A stretch of DNA of 64,000 nucleotides from a virus. Below, one piece after another: positions 45,701-57,931 of the stretch (positions are counted from its first letter, which is position 1; every line of letters begins with the position of its first letter). The notes beneath the pieces were generated by a model. That model saw nothing but the letters and a program-made list of their open reading frames with translations, did no database searches and had not been told where the DNA came from. Made by a program: the position numbers and the translations under genes. The stretch lies in IMG/VR virus record IMGVR_UViG_3300008261_000042; one strand, given 5' to 3'.

Positions 45701-48351
45701 CTGCAGATTTTAATGTTTCTTCTGCTCCAGCAGAACTTGGTGGTGGATCTGGTTTAGTTTTAGCTGCAAAAGTCAGTACTGTAAACAGACAGTATGCTAA
45801 TACCTCTCTCGATATTCAAAGAGTTACTGACCTCACAATTTCGGCAGATGAATTTGGTACTATTGGTGTTGCTAGATTCAGAAAATCTCAGTTCCTAATC
45901 GGTCAATCAGGTAATGGTTCGGTTGTTTTAAAGACTGGAGCAGATAGTGGATTAGATGCTGACTTGTTAGATGGCGCTCAAGGTTCTTACTATCTTAATG
46001 CTTCTAACTTAAACGCTGGAACAGTATCAGTAGATAGACTTTCAGGTACTTACAATATTAGTATTTCTGGTCAGTCTGGTAATACAATCCGTGTTATCAC
46101 AAATACTTCAAACCCAACTTCAAATCCATCTCCAAATGCATTCTCAACTGGTATTGTTGCAGATACAAGAAATAATGTTTCTAATGGATTATCTGATGGA
46201 GGAACCAAAAATTTAGTTCTTACATTAAGACCAGGAGGATCAGGATTTACTGTAGATGGTGGTGTTAAACAATTAGCATTTACTGATAATGATAATATGT
46301 GGTTACGTGGTTCTGGAACCAACGTAGATGCATTTGGTTCTTGGGCTAAAGTTTGGACTTCCTTAAATGATGGCCCTGGAACTGGACTAGATGCTGATAG
46401 ATTAGACAATAGACAAGGAACATGGTATCAAAATGCACTTAATGTTAATTTTGGAACTTTAAGTGATAATAGATTACCATCATATCAATCTAGAAAAGAT
46501 TTCCAAGATTCAATTAGAGTATTATCATTTACTGGTCAACCAAGATATAGAATTTTCATCCCAGATGAAATTCTAACATCAACTCCATTCCTTCCTGGTT
46601 TAACAGTTAACTTATATAATTCAAATGATCAAGGTACTGGTGTAATTTCTATTACTAATGTAGAAATTAATAATGATACAAATGATGTATTTAATAATTA
46701 CACCATTATCACTGGTACTTTAACTACTGGTAATTTTGTAGGTGCTGTTACTATTGGTACAGCAAGTAATAAAAAAGCATTTAGAGATTTTAGTATTGCT
46801 ACTCTTGATGCAAATGCAGATGGTATACCAGACGGAACTTTTGTTGCTGCTGCTTTAGAAAGTGATGGAGGAACAGCTAATTTAAGACTTGGAAGAAAAG
46901 ATGGACAAGCATCTTCTCCTGGATTATATTTTAACTCATCTCAATTAGCTGCATCTTACAATGCTGCTATCGTTGCTACAGGTGGTAATGGATCAACTGG
47001 AAGCGGAACTCTTGATGTCAAAGTTTTAAATGCTGACGGATTTACTTTAAATGGAAATACTATTTGGAATGCTGGTAATGTAACATTCAATAGTACTAAT
47101 GTAGTATCAACTGCTGTTATTCGTGATGCTTCTGGTAATTTTGCTGCGGGAACAATCACAGCAAATCTAACTGGTGCTGCTTCTCAAAACGTACTTAAAG
47201 CTGGCGATACCATGACTGGTTCGCTAACTCTTACTGGTGCTGGAAGCAACTTCAGTGTATCTGGAACTTCTGGATTTGTTGGTAATGTTACTATGAGTGG
47301 TAACTTAACAGTTGATACAAATACTTTATTTGTTGACTCCACTAATGATAGTGTTGGAATTGGAACTATATCACAATCAAACCAATCAAAACTTCATGTA
47401 CAAGGTAATCATGTCAGTGGTCATTCCATCATAAAAGTACAAAGGAATAATTCTGATGTAAGTTCAATTGGATTTTATTCACAGTCTTCTGTGAGAGATG
47501 CTTTAATATATTCCAACAATAGTGCTCAATTATTCCTAGAAACTGCTGGTGCTGGAGCTAGTATCCTTCTCGCTCCAAATGGATCTACACGTTTAACTCT
47601 TCTTGCTACAGGGGAAGTTGGAGTAAGTAGATCCCCAGCATCTGGATATGCTTTAGATGTATCTGGTAAGGGTAGATTCTCTACATCTATGGAAATTCGT
47701 GATGCTTCTGATAATTCTGGAGCATCGATGTTATTCCTTGGTGCTAGTGGCTTTAGAAATTTCAGAATTGGCAATCAACTCAATGCTAATGATGTATTTG
47801 AAATTACTCCATCTACTGCAAACGGAGGAACAACTTGGGGTACAACTCCAGCATTAGCAATTCAAGGTGCGAATAATAGAGTTGCAATTAATACCTCAAA
47901 CTTCTCTGGTACTGATACATCAGTAAGTCCAAATGTAACTAGAAATTATAATTTAAATATCCAAGGTGATATCAATATCAATGGTAACGTATTCCAAAAT
48001 AATGCAGCATTTGTAACTTCTAGATGGACACAAGCAACAAATCAACTAGATATCTATAGATTATCTAAAGTTGGTATAAATAAAGCTAATCCAGATTATA
48101 CATTACATGTTTCTGGAACTATAAATTTTGAAGGATCTTCTTTCACTTCACAAGCAAATACAAGTGTTCTTTATGTAAATGGTGATAGACAATATATTGA
48201 TACTTATGGGGTATTTAAAACAAATAGAAATACCGTAAATGAAGATATAACTATTCCTTCAAATACAAATGCTATGAGTGCTGGTCCTATCACTATAAAT
48301 AGTGGAAGGATAATAACAATTGCATCAGGAGCCTCATGGTCTGTAGTTTAA
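39721..48351 (+). CDS. long tail fibre protein
   Basis: GSGYT..P.V repeats; SGLDADLLDG/GLDADRLD fibre motifs; C-terminal NAMSAGPITI...WSVV; CTAAATA at 39673. Confidence 0.85.
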   Translation: MSFQFNSDREQIRAINPSLIGSNELTIRSGSGSNEKEILRAQLDANTTLPRVGINRTGNRIDRIQVTNGGSGYTLQPTVTLSAPPNGGIQALASAVISDGSVVAVLIDNIGGGYETAPSVTITGGNGNGATAVAYLDTVDFELDINGAIRTSTSIISDTARILNLDIDNFVTPDAQFRAPNLKTYLNSGGTPWSSNVIIQEGQYRYHNTNVYQALNTGTTGTTPPQHTDGIVLNGEVRFKHIGIRANDVNQPYFNEGGQSGVFPRSITPQFGDRSDKIATTEYVLNLATNDVGGRVYVSEQIGSDLNDGRSAVNPVRTIKKAAQIAWTTPGVKETIIVSGGDYVEDNPISLPPDASVVGDNLRLVIIRPNNPRKHIFKFGDKNYVTGVTYRDKIDSNGDPVATWDYAMVFDDKQRIEIDYTANGDFGTDFPVGHQIFGPEKFRSTYQTNTGLSQLTSGQRVKGVNTGAIGLLTDVTFNRITGADAYVNGSVDFSIISGSFNAGETFQYGGIGVVQFAQNTAYTLGQLVWTGDNVYTITVAGISGSSAPSHTSGAITNGSAEFTFLREAYEFISTDIRSIRAEGEVVFTDYDITTALPIVRIDFSKQGDPSVATGGFGDYGTPEDLGGIVFYTNALVGRQNTHNFKEGQEILISNLPTSSPDLSFLNGKQRIYKVLEDADGRTRRFVIPKKTTVTIDSNFDPGQFASVRSYSRSVTLSLLNSPNKFPVATPVARRYQDACLQIRNNIDFIADEVVRKINDQFKQEYFSVYGISGVEFKIYLGPSRFIHTYVSGGTVRFNNTNYNITNFVYDNVVTGEATITTSIPVASLTEDSIVKLSGIVVECDIDGVTTQKVYPSFNIPVSDSKCRRDIGHFLNAVCRDLEFGSNYNIINAAKKYISAGQIDLVDYEITQTIRAIEYARELAIYAMRKWRTGNGTPSDPVYVPQYSSLQRYTDPTVIDDISSPACANVASAINTLSYLFVDVLANGASGTSLDAAYLIARNRDFIADEAYGKTKALYPSLNLSNINERKCRRDINFIISGLIRDIILGGNAGIVTAVESYFSGSVLTGIPEAQRDETIYAFNQVRDLCILAMRNWKTGTNGTGSVYTPLHTPIPLFTDNTILIDPNVNKCATIVSNITTSFALLEDILDGTISPGATTKTFGTLFDTVNIVTYPDSVIYDADGVVYTPRSDYDDYPIIEASPYTQNASVISFLGGGGALIDGSKVKQPNCPFPGLELDGSATFPNQGKSMVAAAFTIVSFGGTGYKIINDGYVQLVSVFVIFCADGVLAESGGYASITNSATNFGIFALRARGYNDFAYSFDVGTITNVSSTPTGRTIFTVDGLGREPLEHYVVKIDGYENVNPDIEYFIDTVGAVTVGPPFSAQITIESGSGGGAEFKSISTGQAVSSSTLTGKTIRLHRPSIVNSSSHTWEFAGSGTNYNALPENGGVKIEAYEQVSQDYGRVYVSGTDELGDFKVGTFARIENRTGNITFTGTVTISEVEFLKLKGGDVVVTGFDASNTLGGANSTDSKLPTQKAVRDYITNNLGPYINKPYSTNAVPRALVELTDSGKISIDQIPPLRPFSVFTVPDQTSRLAIEGALAGDIAIQQDTSTSYILNNDNGSLFVSFNIDPTLQFTTNDVFTGSISGGKIQATEYRQGVVYQINLTDPGSGYTTTPVITITGGNPQAGAIQAAATCTIANGQVVTVKIVSFNGLIGGKGYTTPPTVTFSAPSGAGTQATGVALIESRLYGDIVNNIKMGEADTIQSSDIPAETIEINRVVNTSASNNNNWVSLSTNQIAASDITSGVIATSRLANNSDAANSFSFLRGDQAYAPVVQSIKGAENRYFAKLYSQASSGSSQLLFTTNSNTLVGHTVVNNLTGIQANTSINGVITSGGITTVSLNNPLTSTIAAGTIIEFERGASPLVFESSFTQGGFVDSIVIASGGSGFTNGQYFDVPLTGGSGTGLRSNIIVSNGIVTELTVTNSGAGYTADFNVSSAPAELGGGSGLVLAAKVSTVNRQYANTSLDIQRVTDLTISADEFGTIGVARFRKSQFLIGQSGNGSVVLKTGADSGLDADLLDGAQGSYYLNASNLNAGTVSVDRLSGTYNISISGQSGNTIRVITNTSNPTSNPSPNAFSTGIVADTRNNVSNGLSDGGTKNLVLTLRPGGSGFTVDGGVKQLAFTDNDNMWLRGSGTNVDAFGSWAKVWTSLNDGPGTGLDADRLDNRQGTWYQNALNVNFGTLSDNRLPSYQSRKDFQDSIRVLSFTGQPRYRIFIPDEILTSTPFLPGLTVNLYNSNDQGTGVISITNVEINNDTNDVFNNYTIITGTLTTGNFVGAVTIGTASNKKAFRDFSIATLDANADGIPDGTFVAAALESDGGTANLRLGRKDGQASSPGLYFNSSQLAASYNAAIVATGGNGSTGSGTLDVKVLNADGFTLNGNTIWNAGNVTFNSTNVVSTAVIRDASGNFAAGTITANLTGAASQNVLKAGDTMTGSLTLTGAGSNFSVSGTSGFVGNVTMSGNLTVDTNTLFVDSTNDSVGIGTISQSNQSKLHVQGNHVSGHSIIKVQRNNSDVSSIGFYSQSSVRDALIYSNNSAQLFLETAGAGASILLAPNGSTRLTLLATGEVGVSRSPASGYALDVSGKGRFSTSMEIRDASDNSGASMLFLGASGFRNFRIGNQLNANDVFEITPSTANGGTTWGTTPALAIQGANNRVAINTSNFSGTDTSVSPNVTRNYNLNIQGDININGNVFQNNAAFVTSRWTQATNQLDIYRLSKVGINKANPDYTLHVSGTINFEGSSFTSQANTSVLYVNGDRQYIDTYGVFKTNRNTVNEDITIPSNTNAMSAGPITINSGRIITIASGASWSVV

Positions 48352-48364
48352 TTTATATAGAAAA

Positions 48365-49114
48365 ATGAGTAGCATATTTGTAAATACGATTCAAGCATCT
48401 ACTGGGAATACCGTTACTGTTGCTTCTGGAGTAAGTCTTTCTTTAGGAGGAACGGTATTAAATAGTTCTTCTTTATTGCCAAATCCATCAGGTCAAGCTG
48501 GGAAAATTTTAAAATCAAATGGCTCTTCATTCATTTATGATGTTGCTGGAGTAAAACAAGTTTTAGTTTATACTTCAAATGGAAGTTATACGCCATCTAG
48601 TGGAACTAGACTAGTATACGTTAGATTAGTTGGAGCTGGTGGAGGTGGTTCTGGTTATGGAGAATCTGGAGGTTCTGGTGGTTACGCAGAAGGATTTGTA
48701 GACATGACTGGAGTAAATAATGTAAATATTACTATAGGCACTGGAGGAACTGGGTCATATTATTCTGGTGGTGCTGGTGGAGGAACTACCACATCATTTG
48801 GTTCTTATATGAGTGCTACGGGAGGAAATGGTGCAAATACTTCTCACCAACATTGTGGTGGTCTTCCTGGAGTTGGATCTGGAGGACAATTAGCAATTTA
48901 TGGTGGTGGTGGCACTGGTCATGGATACAATGGTAGAGGTGGAGGAAATTATTTCGGGGGAGCTGGTGCTGCTGGTCATCCACAAGGCGGAAACTTTAAT
49001 CAAAATCATAACAGCCATCAAATCCCAGGAGTTGGTGGTATAAATGGCTGGGCAACTAGTTATCCTGGCAACACTGGGGGTAACGGTATGGTAGTAATCT
49101 GGGAGTACTCATAA
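48365..49114 (+). CDS. glycine-rich fibre-tip or adhesin-like protein, paralog A
   Basis: YTSNGSYTP...LVGAGGGG Gly-rich domain; SHQHCGGLPG; GHPQGG. Confidence 0.75.
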   Translation: MSSIFVNTIQASTGNTVTVASGVSLSLGGTVLNSSSLLPNPSGQAGKILKSNGSSFIYDVAGVKQVLVYTSNGSYTPSSGTRLVYVRLVGAGGGGSGYGESGGSGGYAEGFVDMTGVNNVNITIGTGGTGSYYSGGAGGGTTTSFGSYMSATGGNGANTSHQHCGGLPGVGSGGQLAIYGGGGTGHGYNGRGGGNYFGGAGAAGHPQGGNFNQNHNSHQIPGVGGINGWATSYPGNTGGNGMVVIWEYS

Positions 49115-49872
49115 TGTCAATATTAAAAGTAAACGAAATAAGACCACAATCTGGAACAACAATTACTATTCCTTCTGGACACCAATTAAGTCTAGCAGGA
49201 ACTATTGTAAATTCAAATTCATTTCCTCCAAGTTTTTCTGGGCAAGCAGGAAAATTTTTACAATCTGATGGAACTAATTTAAACTGGCAAAGTTTAGGAC
49301 CAGTTGCTATTAGAACATTTACCGCAAATGGAACTTGGACGAAACCAGCTGGAGTAACTAAAATTCTTGTTCGTGTACAAGGTGGTGGAGGATCTGCATC
49401 TGGCGTAGGAGAAGGTGGAGGAGGTGGAGGATTTTCCGAAAAATTTATTGATGTTACTTCGGTCTCAAGTGTAAATGTCACCGTTGGTCAAGGATCCACT
49501 GCTAGTACGTATTATGCAAATACTGCTGGAGCAGGAACGGCATCTTCGTTCGGTAGTTATGTAACTGCTACTGGAGGAAATGGAGGAAATCAATCACATC
49601 AACATTGTGGTGGTCTTCCTGGCGTTGGGTCAGGAGGAGATTTAAATCTTTATGGTGGAGGTGGATCTGGGCACATGTATTGGTCTGGACCTCCAGGAGG
49701 AAATTCTTTTTATGGCGGTGCTGGAGCTTCTGGTCATCCACAAGGTGGAGATTATGCACATAATCATTCATCTCATGCAGCATTTGGTTGTGGGGGAACT
49801 GCTGGTTATCACACAGAAAGAAGAGGTGCTAATGGAATGCCTGGAGTAGTAGTCGTATACGAATTTGTATAA
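49114..49872 (+). CDS. glycine-rich fibre-tip or adhesin-like protein, paralog B
   Basis: FTANGTWTKPAGV...VQGGGG; same motifs as paralog A. Confidence 0.75.
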   Translation: MSILKVNEIRPQSGTTITIPSGHQLSLAGTIVNSNSFPPSFSGQAGKFLQSDGTNLNWQSLGPVAIRTFTANGTWTKPAGVTKILVRVQGGGGSASGVGEGGGGGGFSEKFIDVTSVSSVNVTVGQGSTASTYYANTAGAGTASSFGSYVTATGGNGGNQSHQHCGGLPGVGSGGDLNLYGGGGSGHMYWSGPPGGNSFYGGAGASGHPQGGDYAHNHSSHAAFGCGGTAGYHTERRGANGMPGVVVVYEFV

Positions 49873-49874
49873 CC

Positions 49875-50636
49875 ATGTCAACACTAAACGTAAATAACAT
49901 AGAATCTTCTAGTGGTACTACTATTTTAATACCATCTGGAAATAGTTTATCCTTAGCTGGAACTGTAGTAAATTCATCTACTCTTCCACCAAATCCATCA
50001 GGACAAACAAATCAAGCTTTATATACAAATGGTTCCGCTGTTTCTTTTAATGTTACAGGACCAAGAAGTATCCAAACATTTACTAGCAGTGGAACTTGGA
50101 CAAAGCCAAGTGGCATTAGTAAAATATGGGTAATGTTATGTGGGGGTGGAGGTGCAGCATCTGCTCACTCAGAATCTGGAGGTGCTGGAGGATATTGTGA
50201 GAAACTAATCGATGTTAGTTCAGTATCATCTGTTCAAGTTACGATTGGAGATGGCTCTACTTCATGGACATATTATTCTGGTGCTGCAGGAGGAGGTGGA
50301 ACTAGTTCTTTTGGTACTTATATGAGTGCGACAGGAGGTAGAGGCGCAAATACTTCTCACCAACATTGCGGTGGTCTTCCTGGAGTAGGTACTGGCGGAG
50401 ACTTGAATGTTTATGGTGGTGGTGGCACGGGTCATATGTCATGGGCATGTATGAAAGGTGGTTCATCTTATTTTGGAGGAGCTGGAGTAAGTGGCCATCC
50501 CCAAGGAGGTAATTTTGCTCATAGTTATTGGGATAGATCAGCTCCTGGTTGTGGAGGAACTGCTGGGTATGATAATAACTCAACATTAGGAGCTTATGGA
50601 AGAGGTGGATTGTGTATTATCTACGAATATGCGTAA
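49875..50636 (+). CDS. glycine-rich fibre-tip or adhesin-like protein, paralog C
   Basis: FTSSGTWTKPSG...LCGGGG; same motifs as paralog A. Confidence 0.75.
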   Translation: MSTLNVNNIESSSGTTILIPSGNSLSLAGTVVNSSTLPPNPSGQTNQALYTNGSAVSFNVTGPRSIQTFTSSGTWTKPSGISKIWVMLCGGGGAASAHSESGGAGGYCEKLIDVSSVSSVQVTIGDGSTSWTYYSGAAGGGGTSSFGTYMSATGGRGANTSHQHCGGLPGVGTGGDLNVYGGGGTGHMSWACMKGGSSYFGGAGVSGHPQGGNFAHSYWDRSAPGCGGTAGYDNNSTLGAYGRGGLCIIYEYA

Positions 50637-50670
50637 ATAAATAGTTTATATAAACAGGAGATTTACAATA

Positions 50671-51132
50671 ATGAAAAGGGTTTTACTTGATTTTAGAGGA
50701 GTTATTAACGATGTTGTTGAGGTTGGATCTGAATTTGAAATTTATGATGGTCCAGACACAACAATTAAATGGGTTTTATGTCCACATGATGGAGTAGACG
50801 GCACTTGGCATTGTCAAGATGGTGAATGGATTTCTCCAGATAGAAAAAAAGATGTAAATTATGATATGCAAAGAAAAATTGCATACGGTACATTAGAAGA
50901 ACAATTGGGAATGCTTTATCATGATATAAAATCTGGCAATTTACAAGATGGCGAATGGATTAGAATGCAAGATAATGTAAAATCTGCTATTATCTCACAA
51001 AGACAATATGAATCAGATCCAGCTAATATTGAAGGAAAGGTGGATCTAAAGTATCATACAGAAACAGATCCTGCATGGAATCATTTACCAGCAGAAGAAA
51101 TTATTCCCCCATCATTTGATCACTTAAAATAA
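50671..51132 (+). CDS. tail-fibre assembly chaperone-like protein
   Basis: AGGAG SD; RKIAYGTLEEQLGMLYHDI motif usual for genes following fibre genes. Confidence 0.55.
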   Translation: MKRVLLDFRGVINDVVEVGSEFEIYDGPDTTIKWVLCPHDGVDGTWHCQDGEWISPDRKKDVNYDMQRKIAYGTLEEQLGMLYHDIKSGNLQDGEWIRMQDNVKSAIISQRQYESDPANIEGKVDLKYHTETDPAWNHLPAEEIIPPSFDHLK

Positions 51133-51148
51133 TAATTAAATTATAATC

Positions 51149-52735
51149 ATGAAAATAAATTCAATATGCATCGTCGGAGGTGGCTCCAGTGGATGGATGG
51201 CAGCGGCTGCAATTGCCGTTAATTTACCAAATATTAAGTTAACTGTTATAGAACCAACTGATATTCCCATCGTTGGAGTTGGAGAATCAACATTAGGTCA
51301 CATCAATCGTTATTTGCATTGTATTGGATTGGGAGGTAAAGATAAAGAATGGATGCCACAATGTGAAGCTTCTTATAAAGTTTCTATTCAATTTTCCGAT
51401 TTTAAACAAAAAGGACATGTATTTCAGTATCCATTTGGAAAGCATGATTATACAAATAACAAAACTCCAAATGATTGGGCATATCTAAAAAATTTAATTC
51501 CAGAATTTAATGACACTTATTCAGAATTTTATAATCCAATTACGTATCTAGCAAATACAAATAAGATGGTTTCTGATAACTCTATTATTAGAAACTTTAA
51601 TTTTACTATGGATACTGCGTATCATTTTAATGCTACTCAGTTTGGTCAATATTTGAAAAATAATATTTGTATCCCAAAAGGAGTTACTGTAATAAGAGAT
51701 AGTATCGAAGATGTAGTTATAAATGAAGATGGAGAGATTGAATACCTAGTAGCAAAATTAACTCCAAGAATGAAATTAAAATATGATTTGTATATTGATT
51801 GCACTGGATTCAAATCATTGATCCTAGAAAAGAAAATGGGATCAAAATTTATAAGTTTTAATGATGTACTATTAAATGATACTGCATTAGCAACTAGAAT
51901 CCCATATATTGATATAGAAAAAGAACTAACTAATGTTACAGACTGCTGTGCATTAAAAAATGGATGGGTTTGGAATATTCCATTGTGGAGTAGAATTGGA
52001 ACTGGATATTGTTATTCTAGTAAATTTACTACTAAAGAAAATGCAGAAAAAGAATTTAGAGAACATCTAGCAAAAATTGATAAGAAAAGAGCTGAAGAAG
52101 CAGAGTTATTTACAATTAATATTAGACATGGTAAACGTGAAAAAGCTTGGGTAAAAAATTGTTTAGGTATTGGTCTTTCTTACGGATTTTTAGAGCCACT
52201 AGAATCTACTGGATTATTAACAACACATGAAAATGTTTTGCGATTAGTTGATACACTACAAAAAAGAGAAGGTTATGTAACAAAATTAGATGTTGATGGT
52301 TATAACCATGCAGTAGATTATGATTTAGAATCATTTAAAGATTTTATTGTTATGCACTATGTGCTTTCACAAAGAGATGATAGTGATTATTGGAAATATA
52401 TCAAATATGAAATGGATGTAGTTCCGCCAGAAATGATTACTGATAGACTAGTAACAAGTCCAAGACTTTATAGAGAATTTTTACATGATAGTTATAGAAG
52501 TCATAATTTTAGTGACTTAGATGGCATTCTTTATATTGCTCATGGAATGGACTATCTTCCTGTAGGAAAAACTCAAACTGAATATAGATTTTCGGAAAAT
52601 GGTTATTTTAATAAAGATCAATTGATAAAAGATGTAAAAATTCCACATGATAGGTATAAAAAACAAGTACTACGTCATCTGGATAAATGCCCGTCTACAT
52701 ACAAATTTTTGAAGGACAACATTTACAATGCTTAA
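51149..52735 (+). CDS. flavin-dependent halogenase (tryptophan halogenase/PrnA family)
   Basis: GGGSSG FAD motif, GVGEST, catalytic-Lys context CEASYKVSIQF, WVWNIP (WxWxIP), FLEPLESTG. Confidence 0.92.
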   Translation: MKINSICIVGGGSSGWMAAAAIAVNLPNIKLTVIEPTDIPIVGVGESTLGHINRYLHCIGLGGKDKEWMPQCEASYKVSIQFSDFKQKGHVFQYPFGKHDYTNNKTPNDWAYLKNLIPEFNDTYSEFYNPITYLANTNKMVSDNSIIRNFNFTMDTAYHFNATQFGQYLKNNICIPKGVTVIRDSIEDVVINEDGEIEYLVAKLTPRMKLKYDLYIDCTGFKSLILEKKMGSKFISFNDVLLNDTALATRIPYIDIEKELTNVTDCCALKNGWVWNIPLWSRIGTGYCYSSKFTTKENAEKEFREHLAKIDKKRAEEAELFTINIRHGKREKAWVKNCLGIGLSYGFLEPLESTGLLTTHENVLRLVDTLQKREGYVTKLDVDGYNHAVDYDLESFKDFIVMHYVLSQRDDSDYWKYIKYEMDVVPPEMITDRLVTSPRLYREFLHDSYRSHNFSDLDGILYIAHGMDYLPVGKTQTEYRFSENGYFNKDQLIKDVKIPHDRYKKQVLRHLDKCPSTYKFLKDNIYNA

Positions 52736-53534
52736 TAATTTTTTTAAAAAGAAATCTCCTACAATAAGATTTTTTTCTCTTACCCCAGGAGTAAATACTT
52801 TATATCCAATTATAAAATCTAATAAATTAAATCGTGAATGGGTAACAGAAGAAAAAATTGATTATGAAAATAGAAAATCTAAATGTCCATTTGGATTTTT
52901 ATCAACACAAGGAATTGATCGTGTTAGTAGTATTGGAAAATGCCCAGCAATTAGTGGAATAATTGGAGCTGGATTTACAATAAGAGCACCAGCAGATTTT
53001 GTTGTGATGACAAATGGAGATAAAACAACGCTCGATTTCAAATACAAAAATATTGTTCCTCATATTGAATATGTAACAAAGCACGAAAAAGAAGTATCAA
53101 GTTGGTTATTAGATTCTTCTAAAGATAATACTCTAAATCAGGTTTTAAAAGTAAATACTCCATGGAGAATTACTTGCGATTCTGATGATATTATTTTTCT
53201 AGTAACAAAAGTTCCATTCGTCAAAGAAGATAGATTCACAGCTGTTACTGGAATTTTAGATCCAAAAACAGCATATGAAATAAATATACAACTTTTTTGG
53301 CACGTACTAAATGGAGAAGAAGTTATAAAAGCTGGCACACCCTTATGTAATTACATTCCAATTTCTAGATCTTTATTGCAAAATATTTCTTTTGTTTCTG
53401 AAGATGCTGAAGAAAGAGATTATCTTGTCGAAAGAGAAATGCTATTTTCTTATGAACATGTATTTTCAAATTCAAACACTTTGAAAGATAAAGTATCTAG
53501 AGTTGTAAAAATATTAAAAAAATATTATGGTTGA
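52728..53534 (+). CDS. conserved phage island protein (KCPAI...GFTIRAPAD...KAGTPL; dUTPase-like beta fold suspected)
   Basis: motif pattern; overlaps neighbours. Confidence 0.6.
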   Translation: MLNNFFKKKSPTIRFFSLTPGVNTLYPIIKSNKLNREWVTEEKIDYENRKSKCPFGFLSTQGIDRVSSIGKCPAISGIIGAGFTIRAPADFVVMTNGDKTTLDFKYKNIVPHIEYVTKHEKEVSSWLLDSSKDNTLNQVLKVNTPWRITCDSDDIIFLVTKVPFVKEDRFTAVTGILDPKTAYEINIQLFWHVLNGEEVIKAGTPLCNYIPISRSLLQNISFVSEDAEERDYLVEREMLFSYEHVFSNSNTLKDKVSRVVKILKKYYG

Positions 53535-54120
53535 ATTATTTCCTATAAAAATTTACAAATCTTCAATTGTTCCATCTAGTAGTGACGACAAGATTTGTGA
53601 AGATATCTTAAATGATCTTTTTTCAAAATCAACAGAAAATTATTGGGCAGGAGAAAGTGGATTTTCTACTGGAGAGTTTTCACTTTCTCTACATCAATAT
53701 AAAGAATTTAATTGGTTATTTGATTCTCTAGTTTCTCATTTAGGTGCATACTGGGATGAATTATCTTATGGAAATATACCTGTTTATTTGAGAGATAGTT
53801 GGGCAAATTTGCATTACTCTAATCACGAAACAGAAGAGCATTCACATTCTGATGGATTACTAGGAAATTCAATAATATCTGGAGTTTTTTATTTTAGAAA
53901 ACCAGAAAATGAATCTAACATAATTTTTTGCAACCCATTAGATTATATACTAAGATTACAACCATATAAAGATTTAAAAGGTATAAAAACCATTGGAGAA
54001 GAAATAAAAACAAATCAATATGATTTTTTACTTTTCCCTTCTTGGTTGCGTCATAGAGTACCAGCATTCAAATCAAATTCAAAAAGAATAGCTATATCGT
54101 TTAACTATGCAAGAGTATGA
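53527..54120 (+). CDS. putative 2OG-Fe(II) oxygenase (TIGR02466-type)
   Basis: SWAN...HSH...SGVFY...LFPSWLRHRV...RIAISFN. Confidence 0.88.
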   Translation: MVELFPIKIYKSSIVPSSSDDKICEDILNDLFSKSTENYWAGESGFSTGEFSLSLHQYKEFNWLFDSLVSHLGAYWDELSYGNIPVYLRDSWANLHYSNHETEEHSHSDGLLGNSIISGVFYFRKPENESNIIFCNPLDYILRLQPYKDLKGIKTIGEEIKTNQYDFLLFPSWLRHRVPAFKSNSKRIAISFNYARV

Positions 54121-54886
54121 TATAAATGATTTTAGAAAAATGTCTATCTCTTCAGTTTACTTTAATGATGAGATTAAAATAAAATCAATTAAAAATTTAG
54201 AATATGAATACATTAAATTAGATAAAAATGTAGGATATTGGATTACCGATTGTCCATTTGTAGATGGATCTTTTATAAAATATATGGAATTTGTTAAATC
54301 AAATCCTATATGGAGAATGAATAACGAATACGATTTGGAAGATACTAATCCATTTGCAACAATTCATCTACCAGATTTTTCAACTAGACCATTGTTTAAT
54401 TTATTATATCAATTTTACTCTTCTACTATTGGTTATAATAAAGATGTTTCGGTAAATGATTGGGGAAATATTTATTTTAAAGAGCACTCACGTCCTATAA
54501 AAAGATGGAGGCTTCCTCATATGGATTATGTTTCTGGTTTGGTAGCTAATCTTTGGTTTACTAATCATGATATAAATTCTACAGGAACTAATTTATATTT
54601 TTATAAAGGAGTGACTCATGGAATTAATTATGATTTCCAAGTAAATGAAAGTCATCCATTATATAAAGAATGGCACAATATGAAATCTAAAGATCGTGAT
54701 ATTAAATGGAATAATTTTTCTATCGATGAAGCTAACTATTGGGGATTTGAATTGCTTGGCAAAGCTCCAACTAAATATAGTTGTATGACAATGTACTATC
54801 CAAATATTTCTCATGCTCCATTTATTGAAGATGACATAAAATTTAGATGGTCACATACTTTTAGTTGTTTTTCTAATTTTTTATGA
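54107..54886 (+). CDS. putative 2OG-Fe(II) oxygenase
   Basis: PHMD (HxD)...GTNLY...HAP...R. Confidence 0.7.
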   Translation: MQEYDINDFRKMSISSVYFNDEIKIKSIKNLEYEYIKLDKNVGYWITDCPFVDGSFIKYMEFVKSNPIWRMNNEYDLEDTNPFATIHLPDFSTRPLFNLLYQFYSSTIGYNKDVSVNDWGNIYFKEHSRPIKRWRLPHMDYVSGLVANLWFTNHDINSTGTNLYFYKGVTHGINYDFQVNESHPLYKEWHNMKSKDRDIKWNNFSIDEANYWGFELLGKAPTKYSCMTMYYPNISHAPFIEDDIKFRWSHTFSCFSNFL

Positions 54887-55473
54887 TTAATGTTGAGCAT
54901 ATTTTTCCTGTTCCTATTTGGTCAATTGATTTAGATCTTAATTTAAACGAGATAGAAACTTATATAAGATCTATTAAAAATGTATCTAATGGGCGAGCTA
55001 TTTCAAATGTAAATGGATGGCAATCAGATTCATTTGATACAAAACAAGAAACAATTCCAGAGATAAAAAGGTTATTTTATCTCATACAAAAATATTTAAA
55101 ATTATGTTATGCAGAATATGGTAGTGCAGAAAACCCAGAAATTGACAATTATTGGTTTAATATAAATTATCCAGGTTCTTCAAATTTAGATCATCTACAT
55201 TCTAGATGTTTTTTATCTGGTTGCTTTTATGTAAATACATCTCTTAACTGTGGGGATATTGTTTTTAAAAGATCTTCATTAGAAGATTATATAATTTCTT
55301 CTAATGTTGGATTATCTAATACTAAACTATCGGCATCTCATTGGAAATATTCCACGAAGCCAAATCAAGTATTAATATTTCCTTCATGGATTTCTCATTT
55401 TGTCGAAGAAAATAAATCATCAGAAGATAGAATTTCAATTGCTTTTAATACGAGGTCTTTAAAATGGGAGTAA
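54883..55473 (+). CDS. putative 2OG-Fe(II) oxygenase (TIGR02466-type)
   Basis: WFNIN...HLH...SGCFY...IFPSWISHFV...RISIAFN. Confidence 0.88.
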   Translation: MINVEHIFPVPIWSIDLDLNLNEIETYIRSIKNVSNGRAISNVNGWQSDSFDTKQETIPEIKRLFYLIQKYLKLCYAEYGSAENPEIDNYWFNINYPGSSNLDHLHSRCFLSGCFYVNTSLNCGDIVFKRSSLEDYIISSNVGLSNTKLSASHWKYSTKPNQVLIFPSWISHFVEENKSSEDRISIAFNTRSLKWE

Positions 55474-56078
55474 AAATTATTGATAATTTATTACCAAAAA
55501 AATTAGAAAACGATATTATGGATCTTACCATGGGAACATCATTTCCATGGTTTTATATAAATGATATAACTAGAAATGTGAGCGGTGAAGGAATTTATGC
55601 TCAGCCAGGATTTCATAACACTCCATTTATACATTATGCTCCATCAAATCCATTTTTTGATTATTTCAAATCTTTATCTTTTATTATAGAAGATCAAATA
55701 AATTGGAAACATGATTTAAATTTGTTTAGATTAAGATGCGGATTAAATTATCCGTTAGTACATCAAAATAAAAAATTTAGTTGGGAATGGAATTATCCTC
55801 ATATTGATCATAATCCAGATTTTGTTACTGGAAAAACTTTTACTTGTTTATACTATGTTAATGATTCTGACGGAGATACATTTGTTTTCAATGAAGTAGA
55901 GGAATCAAAAAATTACACCGTGATGGAAAGGATATCTCCTAAAAAAGGAAGAATTGCAATATTTGATGGAGAGCATTATCACGCAAGTTCTTCTCCTAGA
56001 CTATCAAATTCCAGAATTGTTTTAGCTTTTAATTATCATGATAAAAAATATTTTACGAGATCTGAAGAAACAAATTAA
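55464..56078 (+). CDS. 2OG-Fe(II) oxygenase
   Basis: PHID...LYYVNDSDGDT...FDG.HYHASS...R.VLAFN. Confidence 0.85.
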   Translation: MGVKIIDNLLPKKLENDIMDLTMGTSFPWFYINDITRNVSGEGIYAQPGFHNTPFIHYAPSNPFFDYFKSLSFIIEDQINWKHDLNLFRLRCGLNYPLVHQNKKFSWEWNYPHIDHNPDFVTGKTFTCLYYVNDSDGDTFVFNEVEESKNYTVMERISPKKGRIAIFDGEHYHASSSPRLSNSRIVLAFNYHDKKYFTRSEETN

Positions 56079-56733
56079 ATTTGATGATCAATGTGTTGTT
56101 ATAAAAGATTTTATTTCAAATCCAAATATATTAATTTCGTGGTATGACGTTGAAGAAGCTTTAAATTATAATTTATTTAAATTTGAAATTATACAAAATG
56201 GCAATAAATTACCTATACCAGAAATGAATTATTTTTGGTATTCAAAAATAATTCAAGACAAAAAATACATTTATGATTTCATCATCAACGGTAATGCTTT
56301 TGTAATATTAGAATATAGAAATAAAGAAATCAACAATTTACTACAGCAAATAGAAAATTTTTTTGATGTCTTATGTGATGCTCATATTTATGGTGGGATA
56401 TCAGAATATTCAAAATCATTTACACCGCATGTTGATATTCCTCCAAATTTTATTTTACAAATAGAAGGAACTACGACATGGAAAATATATAAAAATTGTG
56501 CATCTGATTTATTTTCACAAGAAGATATAAATTCTTCAGTAGACAAAAATATTTTAGAAATAGATAAAGAAGTGATATTATCACCTGGAGATATTCTTTA
56601 CATACCATCAAGAAGATTTCATGAGGCTATACCAACGGGGAAAAGACTTTCTATAAGTATTCCATGTAGACCAAAAAAATACGATAGAAGTATGTTTAAT
56701 TTAGATAGAAATTACTATGAAATTACAAGTTAA
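56038..56733 (+). CDS. JmjC/cupin-4 (ROX-like) protein hydroxylase
   Basis: AHIY...SFTPHVD...ILQIEGTTTW...LSPGDILYIP...HEA...RLSIS. Confidence 0.85.
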   Translation: MIKNILRDLKKQIKFDDQCVVIKDFISNPNILISWYDVEEALNYNLFKFEIIQNGNKLPIPEMNYFWYSKIIQDKKYIYDFIINGNAFVILEYRNKEINNLLQQIENFFDVLCDAHIYGGISEYSKSFTPHVDIPPNFILQIEGTTTWKIYKNCASDLFSQEDINSSVDKNILEIDKEVILSPGDILYIPSRRFHEAIPTGKRLSISIPCRPKKYDRSMFNLDRNYYEITS

Positions 56734-57388
56734 TGATTGGGATGAGCCAATGCTAGAATCAGGCAAAGATTTTCCTCCTATCTTAAAATTGGTAAAAAAT
56801 GCAATACCAAAAGAAGTATTAACAATCATGGATATCGAATTTACAATGATGCGTGATTGTATGAAAACTTTAAACAGTACTAATGGATTTAATGATCCAT
56901 CAGTTCACAATTCTTTTTCTTGGTATTCTCCAATATGTTTTGAAACTTTAAGTGTTTATTTACAGCCATTGGTAGAAAAAGAAGTTGGAGAAAAATTGTT
57001 TCCTACGTATTCATATGCTAGAATTTATATGAATAATAGTGTGTTGACTAAGCATACTGATAGAAAAAGTTCTCAATTATCAGCAAGTTGTTGTATAAGA
57101 AAGGACGCAGATTGGCCACTTTGTTTTAAAACAAAAGAAGGTATTGAAGAATTTGATATGGATCCAGGAGATATAGTAATTTCTTCAGGAACAAAAATTC
57201 CTCATTGGAGAGAACCATATACAGGTAATGAACATATGCAAGCATTTTTACAATATGTTTATGTCGATGGAAAATATTCTCATTTAAAATATGACACTAG
57301 ACCATGTTTAGCATCTGATTATGAATTAACTGCTCCTTATATAAAAGAAGAAGTTAATCGAAGATATAATCATCCATACATTTCATAA
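56717..57388 (+). CDS. 2OG-Fe(II) oxygenase
   Basis: PTYSYARIY...KHTDR...PHWRE...FLQYV. Confidence 0.82.
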   Translation: MKLQVNDWDEPMLESGKDFPPILKLVKNAIPKEVLTIMDIEFTMMRDCMKTLNSTNGFNDPSVHNSFSWYSPICFETLSVYLQPLVEKEVGEKLFPTYSYARIYMNNSVLTKHTDRKSSQLSASCCIRKDADWPLCFKTKEGIEEFDMDPGDIVISSGTKIPHWREPYTGNEHMQAFLQYVYVDGKYSHLKYDTRPCLASDYELTAPYIKEEVNRRYNHPYIS

Positions 57389-57412: not shown

Positions 57413-57673
57413 ATGATTGAAGCAACCGAAAATAAAACATATACATTTGAAGAAATTTGGGAAAATTTTGCATCTCAATTAAATGAAGCGAGAATCCAAT
57501 TGAATAATAAAGAAGAAGAAATTCAAGCAGAAGCTGCTCATATGACAAGAATTGATCTTACTGAATTTAATGACTTAAGAACTGCTGTTATTAAATTAGA
57601 AGCAGCATTAGAAACTATGGATATTTTGAGAGTAAATTTATTCAACCAAGAATCATTGATTGTAAAACAATGA
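57413..57673 (+). CDS. coiled-coil hypothetical protein
   Basis: ATAAATA at 57385 upstream. Confidence 0.7.
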   Translation: MIEATENKTYTFEEIWENFASQLNEARIQLNNKEEEIQAEAAHMTRIDLTEFNDLRTAVIKLEAALETMDILRVNLFNQESLIVKQ

Positions 57674-57707
57674 TAAATAATCATACACATAATTATTATT
57701 GATCACT

Positions 57708-57890
57708 ATGGACACCGAACAACTTAAGAAAAATTTTGAAGATCAACTTGCTACTACAGAAAAGCAAATCGCCGAGCTGGAAGCAAATCTAGAAAAAGCA
57801 AAAGAGTATCGCCTTAAACTACAAGGCGGTCTAGAAACTCTAATTCTTCTGAATCCGCCAGAAGAATCTACAGAAGAAGTAGCAGAATAA
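57708..57890 (+). CDS. conserved coiled-coil protein (KLQGGLETL)
   Basis: ATAAATA at 57673; ATG 57708. Confidence 0.75.
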   Translation: MDTEQLKKNFEDQLATTEKQIAELEANLEKAKEYRLKLQGGLETLILLNPPEESTEEVAE

Positions 57891-57895: not shown

Positions 57896-57931
57896 AAATC
57901 CCTATCTGATAAATACAGGTAGGGATTTTTT
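57896..57931 (+). terminator. terminator hairpin with late promoter ATAAATA in its loop
   Basis: AAATCCCTATCTG-ATAAATA-CAGGTAGGGATTT followed by T-run. Confidence 0.75.

What the first reader, a model, noticed from the sequence alone, without database searches (positions are those of the whole stretch)
48230..57388. Candidate virion-tailoring system: three fibre-tip paralogs joined to a halogenase and six Fe/2OG oxygenases
Seen: the fibre C-terminus is followed by three Gly-rich paralogs, a chaperone-like gene, an intact flavin halogenase (FAD motif, catalytic Lys, WxWxIP), one unknown gene and six 2OG-Fe(II)/JmjC genes from five different-looking subfamilies. The eight genes from the halogenase onward overlap one another, no terminator is visible, and the block sits between fibre and neck genes under late-type TAAATA signals. 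Established: cyanophage islands often carry PrnA-like and 2OG-Fe(II) genes of unknown substrate, JmjC/ROX enzymes hydroxylate protein His/Arg/Lys, and a cyanophage flavin halogenase (VirX1) is active in vitro. Inference: this may be a RiPP-like post-translational cassette that halogenates or hydroxylates the His/Trp/Tyr/Pro-rich loops of the adjacent tip proteins, rather than a set of auxiliary metabolic genes. That could tune receptor binding, metal chelation or protease resistance.
Basis: partly seen in the sequence, partly recalled or inferred. Interest (0 to 1): 0.8.

Follow-up and report, generated by a model that had tools for sequence, protein, structure and literature searches.

The report
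Cyanophage fibre genes joined to halogenase/oxygenase array
A marine cyanobacterial virus carries, apparently in one late-expressed gene block, three small tail-fibre proteins with their folding chaperone followed by an iodinating-type halogenase and six oxygenases; the block is real and conserved, but whether the enzymes chemically decorate the fibres is untested.

Summary
The window is from a T4-like cyanomyovirus. Between a 2876-aa fibre and neck gene gp13 lie three Gly-rich paralogs, a 153-aa gene, a VirX1-orthologous flavin halogenase, a 268-aa gene and six dioxygenase genes.

New here:
- The paralogs are homologs of the cryo-EM-resolved Pam3 fibre gp24 (Z 21.4).
- The 153-aa gene behaves like its chaperone gp25 (ipSAE 0.76, best control 0.01). 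A like complex is solved, so the pass may be from memory.
- The 268-aa gene has a dUTPase fold.
- A T4-type late promoter sits about 64 nt before the first paralog, at a conserved position. The only strong terminator follows the last small ORF.

The enzyme array is not new: Iyer et al. 2010 described it in Syn9 and read it as secondary-metabolite synthesis. Its constant linkage to fibre genes seems unremarked.

All 20 phage records and all informative IMG/VR loci with these paralogs have the halogenase just downstream. The reverse fails, and one origin of the linkage cannot be excluded.

Pam3's fibre folds with only its chaperone. Syn9 and S-SZBM1 virion proteomes did not detect the paralogs.

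Fibre tailoring is the leading but unproven reading (about 0.35). First readers also noted this stretch in an overlapping window.

The parts
39721..48351 (+). Giant tail-fibre protein (2876 aa)
   Evidence: ORF. C-terminal 499 aa match phrog_5342 tail fiber at 1.3e-157. No Pfam family. Its C-terminus is not a Gly-rich domain.
48075..48082 (+). Upstream TATAAATA copy, inside the fibre gene
   Evidence: 290 nt before G1. Positional conservation was not assessed.
48294..48301 (+). T4-type late-promoter-like TATAAATA, 64 nt before the G1 start
   Evidence: One of 6 exact copies in 64 kb (expected 11.6). The same motif lies 60-103 nt before the first G gene in eight other diverged loci. Function is inferred.
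48365..49114 (+). G1, Pam3-gp24-type fibre paralog (TNF-like + polyglycine domain)
   Evidence: PF21722 at 24.1 bits, curated cut-off 24.3. phrog_863 at 1.3e-46. 51% identical to G2.
49114..49872 (+). G2, Pam3-gp24-type fibre paralog
   Evidence: PF21722 at 2.3e-11. Model pLDDT 86.7. Pam3 fibre 7ypx_A: Z 21.4, rmsd 2.4 A over 181 residues, 29% identity. Bxb1 tail tip: Z 14.6. ALK/LTK Gly-rich domains: Z 8-10.
49875..50636 (+). G3, Pam3-gp24-type fibre paralog
   Evidence: PF21722 at 8.9e-8. 59% identical to G2.
50671..51132 (+). s153, predicted Tfa/gp25-like fibre chaperone
   Evidence: phrog_1787. Always found with the G genes and never with a halogenase that lacks G genes. Predicted complex with G2: ipSAE 0.76, best control 0.01. 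Language-model neighbours are tail-assembly-chaperone families at 0.86, a lead only.
51149..52735 (+). Flavin-dependent halogenase, VirX1 ortholog
   Evidence: PF04820 at 1.7e-103. VirX1 6qgm E 6.4e-144 over the full length. Motifs present. Falls in the VirX1/gp42-type clade.
52728..53534 (+). u268, dUTPase-fold protein (Syn9 gp43 family), function unknown
   Evidence: Model pLDDT 79.4. ASFV dUTPase 6ky8 at E 6.4e-5, TM 0.65 normalised to the target. 370 relatives, none with a Pfam family and none with an informative name; the few named are 'hypothetical'. No cellular relative found.
53527..54120 (+). ox1, Fe/2OG dioxygenase (PF13759 / TIGR02466)
   Evidence: The family profile matches uncharacterised structures 3bvc and 2rg4.
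54107..54886 (+). ox2, probable Fe/2OG dioxygenase (Syn9 gp46 family)
   Evidence: No Pfam family, and none among 62 relatives. Invariant H138-x-D140...H236 and R247-x-S249. Its Syn9 homolog gp46 lies within the ten tandem genes Iyer 2010 count as dioxygenases.
54883..55473 (+). ox3, Fe/2OG dioxygenase (PF13759 / TIGR02466)
55464..56078 (+). ox4, Fe/2OG dioxygenase (PF13640, prolyl-4-hydroxylase-type superfamily)
   Evidence: Invariant H113-x-D115...H173 and R184.
56038..56733 (+). ox5, minimal JmjC dioxygenase of the NO66/MINA53/YcfD clade
   Evidence: PF08007 at 4.8e-19. Family profile matches NO66 at 1.3e-12, MINA53 at 7e-11, YxbC at 7e-10 and YcfD at 5e-6.
56717..57388 (+). ox6, probable Fe/2OG dioxygenase (Syn9 gp54 family, mis-named 'ferrochelatase')
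   Evidence: No Pfam family. phrog_2954 and phrog_3531. Invariant H113-x-D115...H163. A PF13640 protein in L032 also hits phrog_3531. Iyer 2010 names gp54 as a 2OG dioxygenase.
57413..57673 (+). s86, small conserved ORF inside the unit
   Evidence: phrog_20247 at 6.9e-20. Conserved downstream of ox6 in related loci.
57699..57890 (+). s63, small conserved ORF (TTG start)
   Evidence: phrog_580 at 6.9e-20.
57896..57928 (+). Intrinsic-terminator-like hairpin (13 pairs, then a T-run) closing the unit

Best explanation
The stretch looks like one late transcription unit of a T4-like cyanomyovirus made of two modules.

Module 1 is a Pam3-type simplified-fibre set: three paralogous fibre proteins (TNF-like plus polyglycine receptor-binding domain) and their Tfa/gp25-like chaperone, s153. 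This part is shown at the level of fold, predicted complex and co-occurrence.

Module 2 is the Syn9-type oxidative array: a VirX1-orthologous flavin halogenase, a dUTPase-fold protein and six Fe/2OG dioxygenases from five families. The enzyme identities are shown for the halogenase and four oxygenases, and are probable for the other two.

Inferred: the enzymes are made together with the fibres late in infection and act on a protein substrate. The co-encoded small fibre/tip proteins, and possibly the giant fibre, are the leading candidates. The JmjC and P4H-type enzymes would hydroxylate side chains. The open-site halogenase would halogenate exposed Tyr or Trp. The result would be optional tuning of the receptor-binding surface, not a step needed for folding.
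For: Module 1:
- G2 matches the Pam3 fibre gp24 (Z 21.4, rmsd 2.4 A over 181 residues).
- Pam3 gp24 is a virion fibre whose downstream chaperone gp25 binds its TNF-like/Gly-rich domains through an N-terminal beta-sandwich.
- s153 with G2 gives ipSAE 0.76 against a best control of 0.01. That mark was reached by 58 of 80 solved complexes and 2 of 110 mismatched pairs. The runs agree in at least 88% of contacts and the partner pLDDT is at least 87. The s153 contacts are mainly in its N-terminal residues 5-75.

Linkage:
- All 20 phage records (11 phages, several genera) with the G family have a VirX1-clade halogenase within about 4 kb downstream.
- Every G-seeded IMG/VR locus with enough downstream sequence keeps the order G, s153, halogenase, u268, oxygenases.
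- The block stays together although its flanks differ. It lies next to gp13 here and in S-RIM44 and Sf-CH3, but next to helicase/methylase genes in Syn9, P-TIM40 and S-SZBM1.

Two further architectures put the halogenase and oxygenases beside other small putative tip proteins after a giant fibre:
- Sf-CH11, with GspG-C-like and LamG-like proteins.
- L032, with three tandem aromatic-rich paralogs of about 195 aa.

In cyanophages without the enzymes, the slot before gp13 is empty or holds only structural proteins.

Transcription signals: TATAAATA lies before the first G gene at a conserved position and is almost never found before the enzymes. There are seven consecutive gene overlaps and one strong terminator at the end.

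Substrate class:
- ox5 falls with the protein hydroxylases NO66, MINA53 and YcfD, and ox4 is P4H-type.
- VirX1 is a trimer with a large accessible site and no known native substrate.
- The cluster has no scaffold-forming gene such as an NRPS, PKS or ATP-grasp enzyme.

Weak hints:
- [NS]HxH, the NO66 recognition motif type, occurs in this window's + strand ORFs only in the three G proteins.
- One lineage contrast shows a G-specific, one-directional Tyr-to-Phe shift (11:0) where one halogenase copy is missing.
Against: - No modification has been observed.
- Pam3 gp24 folds and trimerises in E. coli with only its chaperone, and no Pam3 record is among the 68 halogenase hits. The fold therefore does not need these enzymes.
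- The halogenase is not tied to fibres in the sister clade (S-B64, many IMG/VR loci) or in distant clades (S-PM2, S-MbCM6, P-SSM2).
- In pelagiphage HTVC008M the oxygenase array is on the strand opposite to the fibre and neck genes.
- The tree does not exclude a single origin of the linkage, so the many co-occurrences may amount to one event plus retention.
- S-PM2 has three small virion proteins in the same slot with no enzymes.
- The G proteins were not detected in Syn9 or S-SZBM1 virion proteomes, while the neighbouring fibres were. Their presence on virions is therefore unproven.
- The putative hydroxylated position of the HxH loop varies (H/Y/F/N/R), and the loop lies in the predicted chaperone interface.
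- Tyr/Trp content does not track halogenase number in general.
- The dUTPase-fold gene hints at nucleotides.
- Six to ten dioxygenases from five or more families resemble multi-step small-molecule tailoring (Iyer 2010).
Confidence: 0.35

Rival explanations
1. Secondary-metabolite or small-molecule tailoring (the published reading). The halogenase and dioxygenases successively halogenate and hydroxylate a free amino acid, short peptide or other host metabolite in the infected cell. They lie next to the fibre genes only because both sit in one inherited late block.
For: Iyer et al. 2010 proposed this for the Syn9 array. In bacteria the same enzyme families co-occur with peptide synthetases, TonB receptors and SapC. 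All characterised VirX1 substrates are small aromatics and heterocycles. Many distinct dioxygenase families occur in tandem, as in cephamycin-type pathways. Halogenases occur without fibre genes in other phages. The Pam3 fibre needs no enzymes.
Against: The cluster has no scaffold-forming, precursor, export or immunity gene. The signals point to late co-transcription with structural genes. ox5 belongs to a clade whose characterised members all act on proteins. The G family is never found without the halogenase. No halogenated product is known from infected cells.
Confidence: 0.27
2. Host takeover (auxiliary metabolic genes). The oxygenases hydroxylate host proteins such as ribosomal or translation factors, or draw down 2-oxoglutarate. 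The halogenase acts on a host target. The position beside fibre genes is incidental.
For: ox5 resembles ribosomal oxygenases. Sullivan et al. 2010 link cyanophage 2OG oxygenases to 2OG and nitrogen status. 2OG oxygenases are scattered through many cyanophage genomes. HTVC008M has the array on the opposite strand.
Against: Takeover functions are expected early or in the middle of infection, whereas the only strict late promoter precedes the fibre genes and none precedes the enzymes. The linkage to tip-type genes recurs in three architectures. ox5 lacks the dimerisation and winged-helix domains of true ribosomal oxygenases: it is 231 aa and only the JmjC core aligns.
Confidence: 0.2
3. Nucleotide or nucleic-acid modification. 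The dUTPase-fold protein binds a nucleotide, and the halogenase and oxygenases modify the base.
For: u268 has a dUTPase/dCTP-deaminase fold and overlaps the halogenase gene. The best in-vitro VirX1 substrate reported is 6-azaindole, a purine-like heterocycle. Some 2OG oxygenases act on bases.
Against: u268 has no sequence-level match to dUTPase families, and S-SZBM1 and other halogenase loci lack it. None of the six oxygenases matched a family named for nucleic-acid oxidation. Late co-transcription with fibres is the wrong timing for DNA precursor modification.
Confidence: 0.08

Closest known systems
Syn9 gp38-gp54 cluster (two Trp-halogenase homologs, a dUTPase-fold protein, ten tandem dioxygenases; Iyer et al. 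2010, PMC2938197)
   Same: Same gene families in the same order: G-type proteins, s153 homolog (gp40), halogenase, u268 homolog (gp43), then ox1/2/3/5/4/6 homologs including the MINA/NO66-like gp49.
   Different: This window has one halogenase rather than two, six dioxygenases rather than ten, and three G paralogs rather than two. The block lies between a 2876-aa fibre and gp13 rather than next to helicase/methylase genes. In the passages retrieved, the 2010 description does not connect the array to the upstream fibre-type genes.
VirX1, flavin-dependent halogenase of cyanophage Syn10 (PDB 6QGM)
   Same: Full-length homolog: E 6.4e-144, about 45% identity, all motifs present. Same tree clade.
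   Different: Activity, halide preference (I > Br > Cl in VirX1) and oligomeric state are untested for this copy. The native substrate is unknown for both.
Pam3 tail fibre gp24 with its chaperone gp25 (PDB 7YPX; PMC9608196)
   Same: G2 residues 61-252 share the TNF-like plus Gly-rich fold (Z 21.4, 29% identity). A chaperone gene of about 150-160 aa follows the fibre gene, and its N-terminal part is predicted to bind the same domains.
   Different: There are three paralogs here instead of one fibre. The G2 model shows no N-terminal alpha-helical docking domain. s153 has no detectable sequence match to solved chaperones. Pam3 has no linked enzymes. Virion presence is shown for gp24 but not for the G family.
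Ribosomal oxygenases NO66 / MINA53 / YcfD (JmjC protein His/Arg hydroxylases)
   Same: The ox5 JmjC core matches them, with an invariant HxD...H triad. NO66 recognises Gly-flanked NHxH, and the G proteins carry Gly-flanked [SN]HQH.
   Different: ox5 is 231 aa and lacks their dimerisation and winged-helix domains. The motif's target position is not conserved across the G family. No substrate has been tested.
Virus-encoded hydroxylases of virion-associated proteins (mimivirus collagen lysyl hydroxylase, chlorovirus prolyl 4-hydroxylase) and peptide-acting flavin halogenases of RiPP pathways (MibH, SrpI). Recalled from general knowledge, not tested here.
   Same: They are precedents for viral 2OG oxygenases acting on structural proteins and for flavin halogenases acting on peptides rather than free Trp.
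   Different: No phage tail fibre is known to be hydroxylated or halogenated. No collagen-type repeat, leader peptide or recognition element was found here.

Membership tests
Flavin-dependent (Trp-type) halogenase, VirX1 clade | GxGxxG dinucleotide-binding motif | tested here: met
   GGGSSG at residues 10-15, aligned with VirX1.
Flavin-dependent (Trp-type) halogenase, VirX1 clade | WxWxIP motif and catalytic Lys | tested here: met
   WVWNIP at 273-278. K77 lies in the conserved YK.SI.F block aligned with VirX1, whose catalytic Lys is K79.
Flavin-dependent (Trp-type) halogenase, VirX1 clade | Full-length homology to a characterised member | tested here: met
   PF04820 at 347 bits. VirX1 at 484 bits, residues 2-527 against 3-528.
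Flavin-dependent (Trp-type) halogenase, VirX1 clade | Halogenating activity, halide preference and substrate | not testable with these tools
   Needs an enzyme assay.
Fe(II)/2-oxoglutarate dioxygenase superfamily | Match to a curated family model | tested here: inconclusive
   Met for ox1 and ox3 (PF13759, TIGR02466), ox4 (PF13640) and ox5 (PF08007). No Pfam, NCBIfam or PDB sequence match for ox2 and ox6.
Fe(II)/2-oxoglutarate dioxygenase superfamily | Metal-binding triad conserved across the family alignment | tested here: met
   ox2: H138/D140/H236 plus R247-x-S249. ox6: H113/D115/H163. ox4: H113/D115/H173. ox5: H131/D133/H195. The ox1/ox3 family: H105, H107, H176.
Fe(II)/2-oxoglutarate dioxygenase superfamily | Double-stranded beta-helix fold for ox2 and ox6 | not tested
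Profile-profile comparisons were not significant.
Ribosomal oxygenase (ROX: NO66/MINA53/YcfD) | JmjC catalytic core of this clade | tested here: met
   PF08007 at 4.8e-19. NO66 at 1.3e-12.
Ribosomal oxygenase (ROX: NO66/MINA53/YcfD) | C-terminal dimerisation and winged-helix domains | tested here: not met
   ox5 is 231 aa against 373-489 aa for the matched chains. Only profile positions about 88-209 align. It works like a JmjC hydroxylase but is not a full ROX member.
Pam3-type simplified tail fibre (gp24) | TNF-like plus glycine-rich distal domains | tested here: met
   Z 21.4, rmsd 2.4 A over 181 residues, 29% identity. PF21722.
Pam3-type simplified tail fibre (gp24) | Dedicated downstream chaperone that binds the distal domains | tested here: met
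   s153 follows the G genes in all loci. Predicted complex ipSAE 0.76 against a best control of 0.01. A like complex (7YPX) is solved, so the pass shows likeness and may be from memory.
Pam3-type simplified tail fibre (gp24) | N-terminal alpha-helical baseplate-docking domain | tested here: inconclusive
   The G2 model has no helix in residues 1-46, and that part has pLDDT 67-77.
Pam3-type simplified tail fibre (gp24) | Presence in the virion | tested here: inconclusive
   Homologs were not detected in S-SZBM1 or Syn9 virion proteomes. That could mean absence, low copy number, few tryptic sites or modified peptides.
RiPP-type post-translational cassette | Short precursor with leader and core, recognition element, protease or exporter | tested here: not met
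   No such genes among the 16 ORFs. The candidate substrates are folded fibre proteins of about 250 aa.
dUTPase / dCTP deaminase superfamily (u268) | Fold | tested here: met
   ASFV dUTPase E 6.4e-5, TM 0.65 normalised to the target. dCTP deaminases also match.
dUTPase / dCTP deaminase superfamily (u268) | Sequence-family membership and catalytic motifs | tested here: not met
   No Pfam, NCBIfam or PDB sequence match. Motif-level resemblance was not rigorously tested.

The most novel reading that the evidence does not exclude
A family of abundant marine phages enzymatically hydroxylates and halogenates (possibly iodinates) its own receptor-binding fibre tips late in infection, using a VirX1-type halogenase and a set of dioxygenases co-transcribed with the tips. 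That would be a virion 'tailoring' chemistry not known for any phage. It could also explain why these tip proteins escape standard virion proteomics.
Probability: 0.3. Interest if true: 0.85.

Novelty: new member of a known kind. Interest (0 to 1): 0.55.

Why it matters
VirX1 is the only characterised viral halogenase, and neither its natural substrate nor its role is known. The multi-dioxygenase arrays of cyanophages have been unexplained since 2007-2010.

This work shows three things. The array is welded to a Pam3-type fibre-plus-chaperone module. It apparently shares one late transcript with that module. It recurs beside three different kinds of small tip-like proteins. Together these turn a vague 'auxiliary metabolic gene' puzzle into a concrete, cheap test: mass spectrometry of two or three proteins in culturable phages such as Syn9 and S-RIM44.

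If fibres are modified, host recognition in some of the ocean's most abundant viruses has a chemical layer that cannot be read from the fibre protein sequence alone. If they are not, the small-molecule reading gains, and the fibre linkage becomes a useful marker for finding the product.

Tried and rejected
- Megablast of the 9 kb block against phage records found nothing. The phage is only distantly related at DNA level to cultured isolates.
- Sequence-profile searches of solved structures found nothing for the G, ox2, ox6, u268, s153 and L032-paralog families.
- Profile-profile comparisons of ox2 and ox6 with the recognisable oxygenase families were not significant.
- No relative of ox2 carries a Pfam tag.
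- The Syn9 transcriptome paper (Doron 2016) is not held, and another expression paper does not mention these genes. Timing therefore rests on sequence signals only.
- No whole genome is held for the window.
- A scan of bacterial genomes for u268 relatives gave only a 3.6 kb contig in a Prochlorococcus single-cell assembly, probably phage DNA.
BLASTP gives E 1.4, which is not significant.
- The tip HxH loop as a NO66-type substrate motif was kept only as a weak lead. The would-be target residue varies, and the loop is in the predicted chaperone interface.
- Tyr/Trp content of the G proteins against halogenase copy number shows no general relation, only one lineage contrast.
- The 'RiPP-like' label was rejected for lack of its defining parts.
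- A relaxed tblastn search for more distant G-type fibres added only spurious 26-residue hits.

Full report
WHAT IS THERE. The window is from a T4-like cyanomyovirus. gp13, gp14 and gp15 homologs follow the block (PF11649, PF16724, phrog_211). The nearest cultured relatives are Synechococcus phages Sf-CH3/Sf-FP1 and S-RIM44, at protein level only.

On the + strand the genes run in this order:
- A 2876-aa fibre. Its C-terminal 499 aa match phrog_5342 at 1.3e-157.
- Three Gly-rich paralogs G1-G3 (PF21722; 51% and 59% identical to G2).
- A 153-aa gene, s153.
- A 528-aa flavin halogenase.
- A 268-aa gene, u268.
- Six oxygenase genes, ox1-ox6.
- Two small ORFs, s86 and s63.
- gp13.

The halogenase matches PF04820 at 1.7e-103. 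It aligns over its full length with the crystallised cyanophage halogenase VirX1 (E 6.4e-144), with GxGxxG, the catalytic-Lys block, WxWxIP and the ExLES block intact.

Four oxygenases hit curated models: ox1 and ox3 (PF13759/TIGR02466), ox4 (PF13640) and ox5 (PF08007 JmjC_2). ox2 and ox6 hit no curated model. Their family alignments keep an invariant HxD...H triad, and ox2 also keeps RxS. They are homologs of Syn9 gp46 and gp54, which lie within the ten tandem genes gp45-gp54 that Iyer et al. count as dioxygenases; gp54 is named explicitly.

The eight genes from the halogenase onward overlap by 4-41 nt.

THE STRUCTURAL HALF IS A KNOWN KIND OF FIBRE MODULE. An AlphaFold model of G2 (pLDDT 86.7) matches the cryo-EM fibre gp24 of cyanophage Pam3 with Z 21.4 (rmsd 2.4 A over 181 residues, 29% identity). 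Mycobacteriophage Bxb1 tail-tip proteins follow at Z 14.6, and the polyglycine 'TG' domains of ALK/LTK at Z 8-10.

In Pam3, gp24 is a trimeric fibre made of TNF-like and glycine-rich receptor-binding domains. The next gene, gp25 (162 aa), is a Tfa-like chaperone whose N-terminal beta-sandwich grips those domains. gp24 was found in virions and gp25 was not. gp24 folds in E. coli when co-expressed with gp25 alone.

Here s153 occupies the gp25 position. It co-occurs with the G genes and never with a halogenase that lacks G genes. Language-model features place it nearest tail-assembly-chaperone families, at 0.86, which is only a lead.

A complex prediction supports binding of s153 to G2:
- ipSAE 0.76 against a best control of 0.01.
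- That mark was reached by 58 of 80 solved complexes and 2 of 110 mismatched pairs.
- The runs agree in at least 88% of contacts, and the partner pLDDT is at least 87.
- My own alignments were used, so the calibration counts hold only roughly.
- The s153 contacts lie mainly in its N-terminal residues 5-75.

A like complex (7YPX) has been solved, so this pass shows likeness and may come from memory. It is not proof that this copy binds. The G2 interface (residues 134-175 and 187, among others) includes the invariant QH / GGLPG loop.

THE ENZYME HALF IS THE SYN9-TYPE ARRAY, ALREADY DESCRIBED. Iyer, Abhiman, de Souza and Aravind (2010) described the Syn9 neighbourhood. [quoted passage not shown] They proposed synthesis of halogenated, hydroxylated secondary metabolites.

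I confirm the dUTPase fold for u268. The model has pLDDT 79.4 and matches ASFV dUTPase at E 6.4e-5, with dCTP deaminases also matching. The family has 370 relatives. None carries a Pfam family, and the few that are named are called hypothetical. No cellular relative was found.

The ox5 family profile matches NO66, MINA53, YxbC and YcfD. ox5 is only 231 aa and lacks their extra domains.

VirX1 is a trimer with an unusually open active site that accepts bulky substrates and prefers iodide. No native substrate is reported.

LINKAGE.
- tblastn of G2 finds 20 phage records from 11 phages: Sf-CH3/FP1, S-RIM44, Sf-FR1, Syn9/Syn10, S-CREM1, S-WAM1, P-RSM6, S-SZBM1 and P-TIM40. In every one a VirX1-clade halogenase lies within about 4 kb downstream. 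Relaxing the threshold adds nothing real.
- Of 20 IMG/VR loci seeded with G2, every one with enough downstream sequence keeps the order G, s153, halogenase(s), u268, ox1...ox6, s86.
- The block stays intact although its flanks differ: gp13 here and in S-RIM44 and Sf-CH3, but helicase/methylase genes in Syn9, P-TIM40 and S-SZBM1.

The reverse does not hold:
- Of 24 halogenase-seeded loci, only the four Syn9-like ones have G genes.
- S-B64 has the halogenase alone beside gp46/47.
- More distant halogenases lie among tRNA, hli and psbA genes or between the terminase genes.

A quick maximum-likelihood tree gives three clades: gp41-type (14 rows, all linked), S-B64/Sf-CH11-type (16 rows, none linked) and VirX1/gp42-type (22 rows, 21 linked). 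One origin of the linkage is not excluded, so the many co-occurrences are few independent events.

OTHER ARCHITECTURES AND CONTROLS. Three other genomes place these enzymes at or near the fibre-to-gp13 junction:
- Sf-CH11: after the giant fibre come a GspG-C-like protein, two oxygenases, the halogenase, two more oxygenases and a LamG-like protein, then gp13.
- L032, the one unlinked member of the VirX1 clade: a giant fibre with a C-terminal intramolecular-chaperone domain (PF13884), then three tandem aromatic-rich paralogs of about 195 aa from no known family (37-43% identical), then an oxygenase, the halogenase, an oxygenase and gp13.
- Pelagiphage HTVC008M: a five-oxygenase array fills the same slot but on the opposite strand.

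As controls, in S-RIM2 and P-SSM4 the giant structural protein abuts gp13. In S-PM2 three small proteins annotated as virion structural fill the slot, with no enzymes. S-CAM4 has one TIGR02466-like gene there.

So the slot is not a general dump for accessory genes. When enzymes are there, small tip-like proteins usually are too. But tip-like proteins can do without the enzymes.

TRANSCRIPTION SIGNALS. Exact TATAAATA, the T4-type late promoter core, occurs six times in 64 kb (11.6 expected). Two copies lie at 48075 and 48294, the latter 64 nt before the G1 start. The motif sits 60-103 nt before the first G gene in eight other diverged loci, and about 32-36 nt before a G gene in three more. It is nearly absent between s153 and the last oxygenase. 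The only strong terminator-like hairpin (13 pairs plus a T-run) is at 57896-57928, after s63.

Together with the overlaps, this fits one late transcript running from G1 to s63. That is inference. The Syn9 and P-TIM40 time-course data exist but could not be read.

EVIDENCE ON THE SUBSTRATE.

For a protein substrate:
- ox5 falls in a clade of protein hydroxylases.
- ox4 is of the P4H type.
- VirX1's active site is open.
- The cluster has no scaffold, precursor or export gene.
- The signals fit late co-transcription with fibres.

Two weak hints:
- NO66 recognises Gly-flanked NHxH in Rpl8 (GGGNHQHIG). The G proteins carry Gly-flanked [SN]HQHCG, which is the only [NS]HxH in this window's + strand ORFs. 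However, the position equivalent to the hydroxylated His varies (H/Y/F/N/R) across the family.
- Locus L033 lacks the gp41-type halogenase that its relative L034 has. In both of its G paralogs L033 has Phe where L034 has Tyr at 11 positions and never the reverse, while ten other orthologous proteins are balanced at 12 against 13. Other single-halogenase loci, including this window, keep Tyr-rich tips.

Against fibre tailoring:
- The Pam3 homolog needs only its chaperone.
- The enzymes occur unlinked elsewhere.
- u268 hints at nucleotides.
- The G homologs were not detected in two virion proteomes that did detect the adjacent fibres: S-SZBM1 ORFs 48/49 against ORFs 51-54, and Syn9 gp38/gp39 against gp34/gp35. 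That absence cuts both ways. It could mean the proteins are not on virions, or that their peptides are few or carry unsearched modifications.

VERDICT. The structural half and the enzyme half each belong to known kinds, so this is a new member of a known kind.

What is added here:
- The tip genes are identified as Pam3-type fibres with a dedicated chaperone.
- There is a one-way, conserved linkage and an apparently shared late transcript.
- The enzymes recur beside three different small tip-like families.

I rate the fibre-tailoring reading as the single most likely explanation, at only about 0.35. The published small-molecule reading follows at about 0.27, host-protein or 2OG takeover at about 0.20, and nucleotide chemistry at about 0.08.

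The question can be decided directly by mass spectrometry and co-expression in culturable relatives.

First-stage readers also flagged this same stretch in an overlapping window.

Noticed in passing
L033:7807-9419 vs L034:5085-6709 (IMG/VR, Syn9-like): L033 lacks the gp41-type halogenase copy. Both of its G paralogs have Phe where L034 has Tyr at 11 aligned positions and none the other way. Ten other orthologous proteins in the same loci are balanced (12 vs 13). This is a single lineage contrast.
   Followed up: partly
L032:1-12746 (IMG/VR): A third architecture: a giant fibre with a PF13884 intramolecular-chaperone end, then three tandem aromatic/His-rich paralogs of about 195 aa from no known family (37-43% identical), then an oxygenase, a VirX1-type halogenase, an oxygenase and gp13.
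   Followed up: partly
L005 (Sf-CH11, PV340848.1 95120-116643): The halogenase and four oxygenases are embedded between a GspG-C-like protein and a LamG-like jelly-roll protein, after the giant structural protein and before gp13. There is no G family and no s153.
   Followed up: no
window 48365-57388 and related phage records: Several database names are misleading. phrog_863 'tail fiber assembly' covers the fibre proteins themselves. phrog_274 'DNA endonuclease V', phrog_2954/3531 'ferrochelatase' and phrog_1644 'minor coat protein' all label confirmed or probable Fe/2OG dioxygenases.
   Followed up: partly
window 48845-48856, 49597-49608, 50358-50369 (the [S]HQH loops of G1-G3): The Gly-flanked SHQHCG loop resembles the NO66 recognition stretch of Rpl8 (GGGNHQHIG). 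It lies within the predicted s153 interface. Q and the second His are invariant in 23 family members, while the first His varies.
   Followed up: partly
window 52001-58000 vs 48001-50000: The enzyme block has 27-29% G+C. The Gly-rich tip genes have 39%, and the fibre and neck genes 34-38%. Part of the difference is due to Gly codons, and other parts of the window (14-40 kb) are also about 30%.
   Followed up: no
window 55527-55551: A 10-pair hairpin with a T-run lies inside ox4. It is probably chance, since terminator-like sites in the region are fewer than in shuffles.
   Followed up: no
L007/L057 (Pelagibacter phage HTVC008M): A five-oxygenase array lies between fibre-like genes and gp13 on the opposite strand. 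A separate halogenase plus oxygenase pair sits between the small and large terminase genes.
   Followed up: partly
L056 (Prochlorococcus sp. AG-418-C09 contig QCLS01000024.1): A 3.6 kb contig in a Prochlorococcus single-cell assembly encodes a u268 homolog at 50% identity. It is probably DNA of an infecting phage of this group.
   Followed up: no
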